A stretch of 64,000 nucleotides of DNA from Octopus vulgaris (Eukaryota). How positions within the stretch are numbered: position 1 is the stretch's first letter; each line of letters begins with the position of its first letter. Location of the stretch: positions 24,614,001 to 24,678,000 of the forward strand of contig OX597822.1 in assembly GCA_951406725.2 (NCBI GenBank), read 5' to 3'. This document shows, one piece after another, positions 28,146 through 28,223 of the stretch. The notes under the pieces were generated by a model. That model saw nothing but the letters and a program-made list of their open reading frames with translations, made no database searches and was not told the origin of the DNA. The position numbers were made by a program, and so were the translations under genes.

Positions 28146-28223
28146 GGCCGGATCGGAGCGATCTCAAGATTAATCAGCCGAAATTGCTAGGATGATCCGG
28201 TTCTTGACTGAAGATTGAAGGCT
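28146..28223 (+). ncRNA. Permuted-order hammerhead-like motif with K-turn, family H2 (repeat ~27820-28300)
   Basis: CCGGATCG-GA-GCGA-TC-TCAAGA-6nt-AGCC-GAAA-TTGC-TAG-GA-TGATCCGG-t-TCTTGA-CTGAAGA-5nt-GGCT. Confidence 0.6.

What the first reader, a model, noticed from the sequence alone, without database searches (positions are those of the whole stretch)
28146..28223. Second repeat family (H2) with the same A-C-B hammerhead order plus a canonical kink-turn (also 34434-34511, 63515-63586 -)
Seen: a family with different stem sequences shows the same order, GC(A/G)A-TC-TCAAGA-(6)-AGCC-GAAA-TTGC...TCTTGA-CTGANGA-(5)-GGCT. Stem III continues as TTGC|TAG,TAA or GAG|GA-TGATCCGG against CCGGATCG-GA-GC(A/G)A, i.e. 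a 3-nt bulge followed by tandem G.A/A.G, the established K-turn consensus. Inference: the kink could fold the extra helix back so that strand B reaches the junction in one molecule, possibly stabilised by L7Ae/15.5K-family proteins. Recurrence in two families makes chance less likely. Caveats: a 5-nt insert between A9 and stem II is atypical, and the 63.5-kb copy has lost part of its core.
Basis: partly seen in the sequence, partly recalled or inferred. Interest (0 to 1): 0.85.

Follow-up and report, generated by a model that had tools for sequence, protein, structure and literature searches.

The report
Rewired hammerhead ribozyme in animal retroelement
A repeated stretch of an animal genome appears to encode a hammerhead self-cutting RNA wired in an order not found in the papers searched, with a kink that could fold it back on itself; the same design ends several Naiad jumping genes reported to lack canonical hammerheads, but cutting is untested.

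Summary
The hammerhead blocks, their scrambled order and the kink-turn are really there. The order is Eckert 2023's type SGC, so it is not new in itself, but they found it only in metatranscriptomes. Its true 5' strand lies upstream (28142-46), directly after a hairpin (28104-41), while the strand after A9 pairs with the far 5' flank. All 4 intact permuted cores in the window (2 H2, 2 of another family) follow this plan with different stem sequences; 0 of 200 shuffles do. So the chain is opened inside the core, between A9 and G10.1, giving a four-way junction, which Eckert's scheme assumed impossible. Read by eye, published Naiad Penelope-like element consensi end in the same plan (two octopus, with the K-turn; one ostracod, without) or in plain SGC (crab, horseshoe crab). 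H2 is a many-copy ~480-bp repeat in (TA)n; its variants spare the core and K-turn. Most likely a self-cleaving ribozyme of a Naiad-type retroelement, folded as a monomer by the kink, or as a dimer. No cleavage data exist, and no reverse-transcriptase gene is linked.

The parts
27823..28299 (+). H2 repeat copy 1 (~480 bp, no protein family hit), between (TA)n tracts on both sides
28088..28101 (+). P4 5' strand; pairs with 28217-28231, just 3' of A9 (13 bp with one internal loop in copy 1; 15 bp unbroken in copy 2)
28104..28141 (+). P5 hairpin; its 3' end abuts G10.1 with no gap
28142..28146 (+). Stem II 5' strand, starting with G10.1 (upstream, not after A9); pairs with 28175-28179
   Evidence: no variant at 5% or more
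28147..28157 (+). 5' strand of the K-turn NC helix (P3b) and G2n/A1n at 28156-57
28158..28169 (+). Block S: stem III 5' strand, AUC triplet with predicted cleavage after C28163, stem I 5' strand
28170..28187 (+). 5-nt linker and block G: stem II 3' strand, GAAA (28180-83), stem III 3' strand
28188..28201 (+). K-turn bulge (28188-90), G1b/A2b (28191-92), P3b 3' strand
28202..28214 (+). Stem I 3' strand and CUGANGA core (28208-14)
28217..28231 (+).
34048..34599 (+). H2 copy 2 (aligned part); ribozyme 34373-34519, site after 34451; 2 extra nt between P5 and G10.1, one mismatch in P3b
63404..63693 (-). H2 copy 3, 5'-shortened, with deletions in and behind CUGANGA; presumably dead
17729..17860 (+). 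H1 copy a: same topology (G10.1 17774, site 17800, GAAA 17817, C3 17847), loop-E-like arm instead of a K-turn
24321..24446 (+). H1 copy b: same topology with different stem sequences (G10.1 24365, site 24391, GAAA 24406, C3 24435)
27029..27145 (+). H1 copy c: upstream stem II strand deleted, C3 mutated; presumably dead

Best explanation
H2 is the terminal (pLTR/3'-UTR) part of a many-copy Penelope-like retroelement, most likely Naiad-type or a non-autonomous rider on one, inserted in (TA)n. Its RNA carries a hammerhead ribozyme whose 5'-to-3' order is: P4 5', hairpin P5, stem II 5', stem III arm 5', site and stem I 5', stem II 3', GAAA, stem III arm 3', stem I 3', CUGANGA, P4 3'. SHOWN from sequence: the strands, their pairing and their recurrence with other letters in other families. 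INFERRED: the catalytic core folds as in any hammerhead. The backbone is opened between A9 and G10.1, where P4/P5 stack beside the stem II/stem III stack as a four-way junction. The outer ends of stems I, II and III meet in a second junction, and the K-turn bends the stem III arm back so one molecule can close it; the arm beyond the kink is the topological equivalent of Eckert's 'I' helix. Versions with a straight arm must swap flanks between two molecules. The RNA cuts after C28163. The two products stay joined by about 30 bp, so re-ligation and circularisation of unit-length RNA from tandem transcripts should be favoured, which fits genomic copies that keep sequence on both sides of the site.
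For: All 11 fixed core bases, stems I and III and an NUH triplet are intact in 4 of the 6 copies examined. In those 4, the upstream stem II has 5 Watson-Crick pairs starting G-C, in 3 different sequences. None of the 4 has a 4-bp Watson-Crick stem II within 1 nt of A9; shuffles give 0 of 200. A hairpin ends 0 nt before G10.1 in 3 of 4 and 2 nt before in 1 of 4; P4 starts 0-2 nt after A9 in all 4. The nested minimum-energy fold of copy 1 gives P4, P5 and the K-turn arm unaided; copy 2 z -4.10, H1a z -2.52. Contigs laid in 4 runs of 3 organism labels: 7759, 6161, 3790, 1088, with depth peaking over the ribozyme. Listed variants hit 0 of 11 core, 0 of 4 K-turn G/A, 5 of 48 paired and 5 of 10 predicted-free positions (Fisher p 0.005 and 0.003). 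Of 25 of 54 Naiad consensus 3' ends read by eye in the PMC8557442 supplement, Naiad_Obim, Naiad_Ovul and Naiad-4_Dst show the full plan (the two octopus ones with a canonical K-turn), Naiad_Esco a looser form, and Naiad_Ppla and Naiad_Lpol plain SGC with an I helix. Cephalopod Naiads prefer (TA)n. SGC ribozymes cleave in vitro (PMC10085705).
Against: No cleavage or probing data. No hammerhead with a helix pair inserted at A9/G10.1 has been tested in the papers I saw; the junction could distort the G12.A9 pair. One variant (28186 G>A, 18-23% of depth in 3 of 4 runs, 3% in the fourth) breaks a stem III pair with no listed partner change; the commonest state at 28150/28198 is an A.C mismatch in P3b (3 rows not shown, variants unlinked). 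Background variation is low (21 of 153 positions), so 0 of 15 alone has p about 0.11. Copy 1 folds only modestly (z -1.69; its reverse strand -2.79) and H1b not better than shuffles (z +0.32). The monomer fit is marginal: 28-29 A against 24-30 A allowed, with recalled helix parameters. H1 and Naiad-4_Dst lack a kink. No RT/GIY-YIG frame lies beside any copy, and 4 H1/H2 motifs were absent from the published consensi, so the Naiad link rests on architecture and target only. Four other 'half-core' Naiads are ordinary type I order, 3 are unresolved and 12 show no core. The Naiad readings are by eye, and their names are assigned from file order.
Confidence: 0.72

Rival explanations
1. Same strands, but the working form is a two-fold, flank-swapped dimer (or a pairing between tandem copies): each molecule's flanks complete the core in the other's loop, and the K-turn shapes the dimer or is incidental.
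For: H1a/H1b and Naiad-4_Dst have the same wiring with a straight arm that misses by 40 A or more as a monomer. By symmetry an antiparallel dimer closes for any arm length (inference). Penelope hammerheads are reported to cleave as dimers (PMC6765202 passages).
Against: A canonical K-turn sits at the same place in two unrelated stem sequences (H2; Naiad_Obim/Ovul) exactly where a monomer needs it; its G/A bases show no listed variant.
Confidence: 0.3
2. One reading: plain type SGC with stem II formed by 28220-23 after a 5-nt insert; the upstream strand is a decoy, or the two strands form an on/off switch.
For: The downstream 4-mer is a perfect complement in both H2 copies, and plain SGC does occur in Naiad_Ppla and Naiad_Lpol.
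Against: It is weaker by 3.5-4 kcal/mol in all 4 copies, sequestered in P4, variable at 28222 (C>G up to 14%), and absent as a Watson-Crick helix in H1. Eckert found no insert longer than 1-2 nt at this place.
Confidence: 0.08
3. A catalytically dead or very slow hammerhead-derived fold kept as a binding site for the element's RT/endonuclease (or 15.5K) at the 3' end of the template RNA.
For: Genomic copies span the cleavage site. Penelope hammerheads are slow in vitro. Many Naiads multiply without this motif. One common variant breaks stem III.
Against: All catalytic bases and an NUH triplet are kept across octopus, ostracod, crab and horseshoe-crab elements while the stems change freely; the only listed change at the site (C>A) is one that hammerheads allow.
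Confidence: 0.15
4. Chance arrangement in a degenerate repeat.
Against: 4 hits against 0.02 expected, compensatory stem changes between families, and the same plan in independent published consensi.
Confidence: 0.03

Closest known systems
Type-SGC non-circularly permuted hammerhead (HRIMA-1 and variants; Eckert et al. 2023, PMC10085705)
   Same: Site, then GAAA, then CUGANGA; double-pseudoknot core; short linker from stem I to stem II; an extra helix joining the outer ends. The authors flagged as unexplained that this helix is sometimes joined directly to stem III, which is where H2 has its K-turn.
   Different: In SGC the stem II 5' strand follows A9 (block C assumed indivisible). Here it lies upstream, with P4/P5 inserted at A9/G10.1, i.e. 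the SGC ring closed at stem III and reopened inside the core. SGC was found only in metatranscriptomes, none in genomes of known organisms; 'k-turn' and 'kink' do not occur in its supplement text.
Naiad Penelope-like elements (Craig et al. 2021, PMC8557442), especially Naiad_Ovul, Naiad_Obim, Naiad-4_Dst
   Same: (TA)n targets; motif near the 3' end; same helix plan, with a K-turn in the two octopus consensi. The paper's unexplained 'HHR_half_core' label covers Ovul, Esco and Dst-4.
   Different: H2 and H1 share no exact searched motif with those consensi and have no linked ORF. The paper reports no canonical hammerhead in Naiads and describes no such fold in the passages I read.
Type I minimal hammerheads of Penelope/Hydra pLTRs and animal retrozymes (review PMC6765202; preprint 10.64898/2026.07.22.740005)
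   Same: Hammerhead at the terminal repeat of a Penelope-like element; possible dimer action; likely role in cutting tandem transcripts.
   Different: Ordinary circular order, short palindromic stem III, products held only by stem I; no K-turn or four-way junction.
Standard k-turn (Kt-7, SAM-I, box C/D; McPhee et al. 2014, PMC4382518)
   Same: 3-nt bulge followed by G.A and A.G in a duplex; 3n=G in H2.
   Different: Here it sits in stem III of a ribozyme; L3 is G or A in H2 rather than the U preferred by L7Ae (preference recalled).

Membership tests
Hammerhead ribozyme | Conserved core CUGANGA and GAAA, with U16.1-A15.1 | tested here: met
   H2 copies 1 and 2 intact; 0 of 11 positions with a listed variant
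Hammerhead ribozyme | Stems I, II, III around the core with G10.1-C11.1 and an NUH site | tested here: met
   6/6, 5/5 (upstream strand), 5/5; AUC
Hammerhead ribozyme | Self-cleavage 3' of H17 | not testable with these tools
   needs an in vitro assay
Type-SGC hammerhead (Eckert 2023) | Order site - GAAA - CUGANGA | tested here: met
Type-SGC hammerhead (Eckert 2023) | Stem II 5' strand within 1-2 nt after A9 (intact block C) | tested here: not met
   0 of 4 intact cores; the partner is upstream
Type-SGC hammerhead (Eckert 2023) | 'I' helix joining the outer ends of stems I and II | tested here: inconclusive
   P3b joins the same two strands, so it is the topological equivalent, but it is continuous with stem III (inference)
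Standard k-turn | 3-nt bulge followed by G.A and A.G between two helices | tested here: met
   3 of 3 H2 copies; definition
Standard k-turn | Adopts the kinked fold in Mg2+ or with L7Ae/15.5K | not testable with these tools
   3n=G predicts ion-induced folding
Naiad Penelope-like element | ORF with N-terminal GIY-YIG endonuclease and C-terminal RT | tested here: inconclusive
   no such Pfam hit in 132 of 228 candidate frames scanned; copies may be 5'-truncated; no genome held
Naiad Penelope-like element | Insertion into (TA)n; 5'-truncated copies | tested here: met
   (TA)n on both sides of copy 1 and 3' of copies 2 and 3; depth falls steeply toward the 5' end, which divergence could also cause. 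Hydra-clade elements share the (TA)n preference, so this does not single out Naiad
Naiad Penelope-like element | Sequence similarity to a described Naiad 3' UTR | tested here: inconclusive
   4 exact motifs not found in the supplement, where line breaks can hide matches; no alignment was run
Non-LTR retrozyme | Tandem repeats of a unit with a type I hammerhead | tested here: not met
   copies are dispersed singletons in this window and not type I

The most novel reading that the evidence does not exclude
A seventh natural hammerhead wiring, opened inside the catalytic core at A9/G10.1 with a four-way junction, is the resident self-cleaving ribozyme of a branch of Naiad retroelements across molluscs and arthropods. 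It exists as flank-swapped dimers (straight or loop-E arm) and, by gaining a K-turn, as monomers, in some cases switched on by the host 15.5K protein. Together with plain SGC forms in crab and horseshoe-crab Naiads, non-circular permutations would then be abundant in animal genomes rather than a metatranscriptome rarity.
Probability: 0.5. Interest if true: 0.9.

Novelty: new variant of a known kind. Interest (0 to 1): 0.8.

Why it matters
It would extend non-circular ribozyme permutations from uncharacterised metatranscriptome RNAs to many-copy elements in animal genomes, and break the assumption that the CUGANGA block cannot be split. It offers an answer to the geometric puzzle Eckert et al. 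left open (how the I helix can join stem III directly: by a K-turn or by dimer formation). It also revises the view that Naiads lack hammerheads, which has been used to argue that ribozymes are dispensable for Penelope-like elements. All of this is testable with a 150-nt transcript. A naturally K-turn-gated hammerhead would also be a ready scaffold for protein-controlled RNA switches.

Tried and rejected
No whole genome is held, so no genome-wide alignment or ORF link could be made. Rfam: none of the 150 listed of 252 whole-window matches was a hammerhead, and 28000-28290 gave one chance match at E 2.8. Family pattern in metagenome contigs: 12 matches, 0 of 12 with CUGANGA behind; in viral contigs 0. 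Generic K-turn-plus-core pattern in viral contigs: 120 loci returned of about 770; 1 of 120 passed loose stem I and III tests, an AT-rich sequence judged by eye to be chance. Sequencing runs: no RNA holder listed; X8 is only guessed to be RNA, so expression is open, and contigs showed no common start or end at the site (table 6 empty, uninformative). Rejected: pairing of the insert with 28174-77 as stem II (the insert varies at all 5 bases while its partner does not). Rejected: CpG decay as the source of the variants (the CpG at 28179-80 and others show none). Literature searches that found no description of this fold: 'type-SGC'+hammerhead gave only Eckert; hammerhead+k-turn+Penelope 0; hammerhead+kink-turn+permuted+retrotransposon 0; hammerhead+G10.1+insertion+additional stem 0; Naiad+ribozyme+Penelope 3 listed, none describing it in what I read; four-way-junction search 15 of 20 listed, titles and abstract starts only. 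Subscription papers are not covered, among them probably Weinberg 2015 and Lunse 2017 on hammerhead variants with extra helices (recalled, not read), so an inserted helix at A9/G10.1 may have precedent in ordinary-order hammerheads. The preprint's supplements are closed. Earlier scan findings: none for this genome or sequence.

Full report
SETTING. The window is AT-rich animal DNA full of (TA)n tracts, SINEs and LINE fragments. It looks like an octopus or other cephalopod from my recall of its SINEs; no call names the organism, and no genome is held. H2 occurs three times at 76-80% identity (28031-28292+, 34319-34581+, 63693-63404-). Copies 1 and 2 align over about 470 bp. Copy 1 has (TA)n on both sides; copies 2 and 3 end in it. 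No Penelope-type protein domain was found in 132 of 228 candidate frames.

THE OBSERVATION. This meets the definition of a standard k-turn in McPhee 2014 (PMC4382518, passages), with G at 3n, the state that paper links to folding in metal ions alone. A descriptor for this order with stems I and III finds 4 sites in the window (17847, 24435, 28208, 34496) against a mean of 0.02 in 200 shuffles. It was written after seeing the sequences, and the 4 sites are two families.

THE ORDER IS KNOWN. Eckert et al. 2023 (PMC10085705; parts 1-6 of 8 read; supplement searched for six terms) call this order type SGC and show that it cleaves (0.007-0.19 per min). They found it only in metatranscriptomes. They assume that CUGANGA and its two adjacent strands form one indivisible block, with inserts of at most 1-2 nt. 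They also note as unexplained that in some cases the 'I' helix is joined directly to the far end of stem III.

THE CORRECTION. A better partner lies upstream: 28142-47 pairs 6/6 with 28174-79 (-8.3 against -4.8 kcal/mol). The same holds in copy 2 and, with different letters, in both intact H1 copies (-6.2 against -2.0 and -2.6). All 4 descriptor hits have a perfect upstream strand, none has a Watson-Crick stem II within 1 nt of A9, and 0 of 200 shuffles give an upstream hit. In each, a hairpin (P5) ends at or within 2 nt of G10.1, and the strand just 5' of P5 pairs with the strand just 3' of A9 (P4: 15 bp unbroken in copy 2, 13 bp in copy 1, 7 in H1a, 4 in H1b). Unconstrained folding of copy 1 gives P4, P5 and the K-turn arm and leaves the pseudoknot strands largely free. 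With these flanks z is -1.69 (copy 1), -4.10 (copy 2), -2.52 (H1a) and +0.32 (H1b); the two reverse strands tested score as well or better, so energy does not choose the strand, the core does. The chain is therefore opened between A9 and G10.1, where P4/P5 and the stem II/stem III stack form a four-way junction. The outer ends of stems I, II and III meet in a second junction. Topologically this is the SGC ring closed at the stem III/I-helix joint and reopened inside the core; the helix beyond the K-turn is the I helix (inference).

FAMILY VARIATION. Contigs of four runs (three organism labels, three studies) were laid on 27825-28300 at 80% likeness: 7759, 6161, 3790 and 1088 records, with depth peaking over 28161-28224 and falling 50- to over 1000-fold toward the 5' end (depth is not a copy number). 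Variants at 5% or more hit 0 of 11 core positions, 0 of 4 K-turn G/A, 5 of 48 paired and 5 of 10 predicted-free positions (H17 C>A, N7, two bulge bases, one linker base); Fisher p 0.005 and 0.003. The upstream stem II strand has none. Against: background variation is only 21 of 153, so 0 of 15 alone has p about 0.11; 28186 G>A (18-23% in three runs, 3% in one) breaks a stem III pair with no partner change listed; the commonest state of 28150/28198 is A.C; three rows were not shown and variants are unlinked.

THE SAME PLAN ELSEWHERE. Craig et al. 2021 (PMC8557442; passages; supplement tables) report that Naiads prefer (TA)n in cephalopods and lack canonical hammerheads. They flag eight as 'HHR_half_core', with the second core half 35-50 nt away on either side. 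I read by eye the last ~600 nt of 25 of the 54 Naiad consensi (names assigned from file order). Naiad_Obim and Naiad_Ovul have the full plan: P5 abutting G10.1, upstream stem II 6/6, stem I 6/6, a looser P4, and a canonical K-turn with U.U at 3b.3n. Naiad-4_Dst has it with P4 5 bp, P5 8 bp, stem II 6/6 and a straight 15-bp arm with a one-base bulge. Naiad_Esco has the order with a 6x1 loop and an imperfect upstream stem II. Naiad_Ppla (nearly 37,000 copies by that paper) and Naiad_Lpol have plain SGC, with a 3-bp stem II after A9 and an I helix. Four half-cores (Parc, Nbra-3, Hpol, Smim) are ordinary type I order; three Darwinula elements are unresolved; twelve show no core. H2 and H1 themselves match none of these by four exact motifs, so they are other families, and their clade is inferred from architecture and target only.

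HOW IT WORKS. H1 (AGUA/GAA loop-E-like motif, label recalled) and Naiad-4_Dst cannot fold as monomers; a two-fold dimer in which each molecule's flanks complete the other's core closes for any arm length, and Penelope hammerheads are reported to act as dimers (PMC6765202 passages). After cleavage the products remain joined through stem II, the stem III arm and P4, about 30 bp, which should favour re-ligation and circularisation of unit RNA cut from tandem transcripts. Shown: strands, pairing, recurrence. Inferred: fold, cleavage, oligomeric state, role.

VERDICT. A real feature, more interesting than reported but for a different reason. It works like a type-SGC hammerhead, but it fails that type's intact-block-C criterion and should be filed as a new wiring of the hammerhead. 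Searches of the held library found no description; subscription papers on hammerhead variants with extra helices were not seen. Novelty: new variant of a known kind. Interest 0.8; confidence in the best explanation 0.72, limited by the lack of any cleavage data and of an ORF link.

Noticed in passing
window 59733-59797 +: Ordinary type I hammerhead with a 3-bp stem III and 1-nt loop beside a (TA)n tract, like the Hydra-clade pLTR motifs tabulated in PMC8557442.
   Followed up: partly
window 53461-53494 +, 53774-53742 -, 63282-63309 +: Three degenerate minimal type I hammerhead-like motifs of another (TA)n-flanked repeat, two of them arranged head to head around a (TA)n tract.
   Followed up: partly
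window 17780-17841, 24370-24429, 27060-27120 +: H1 stem III arm carries AGUA opposite GAA (GGA in copy c), a sarcin-ricin/loop-E-like motif (label recalled), where H2 has its K-turn.
   Followed up: partly
PMC8557442 supplement S5, 3' ends of Naiad_Ppla and Naiad_Lpol: Plain type-SGC hammerheads with an I helix and a long helix between the site and GAAA blocks; apparently unrecognised, in a family with tens of thousands of copies.
   Followed up: partly
PMC8557442 supplement S5, bivalve Naiad 3' ends: CGi, Olur, Tgra and Pmar share a conserved motif that looks twister-like; Mgal, Bpla, Mphi, Scon and Mmer share another that looks pistol-like (both labels recalled, untested). The Naiad 3' end may be a slot for self-cleaving RNAs of several classes.
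   Followed up: no
loose ends at window 28150-28184 in run X8: A diverged H2 subfamily with different stem I letters, an A at the site and perhaps a one-pair-longer stem III; its partner strands were not shown.
   Followed up: no
window 35308-38429 -: Near-complete LINE (endonuclease plus RT, frameshifted) between (TA)n tracts, next to H2 copy 2 on the opposite strand; a fragment of a relative at 31389-31891.
   Followed up: no
window 60401-62389 - and 49922-51091 +: A 663-aa open frame for a secretin-family 7TM receptor with a somatomedin B-like domain, and a 390-aa MFS transporter exon.
   Followed up: no
window 27616-27784, 11643-11847, 10881-11139, 44621-44992, 48199-48824, 399-551: Several long inverted-repeat (MITE-like) elements; one lies just upstream of H2 copy 1.
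   Followed up: no
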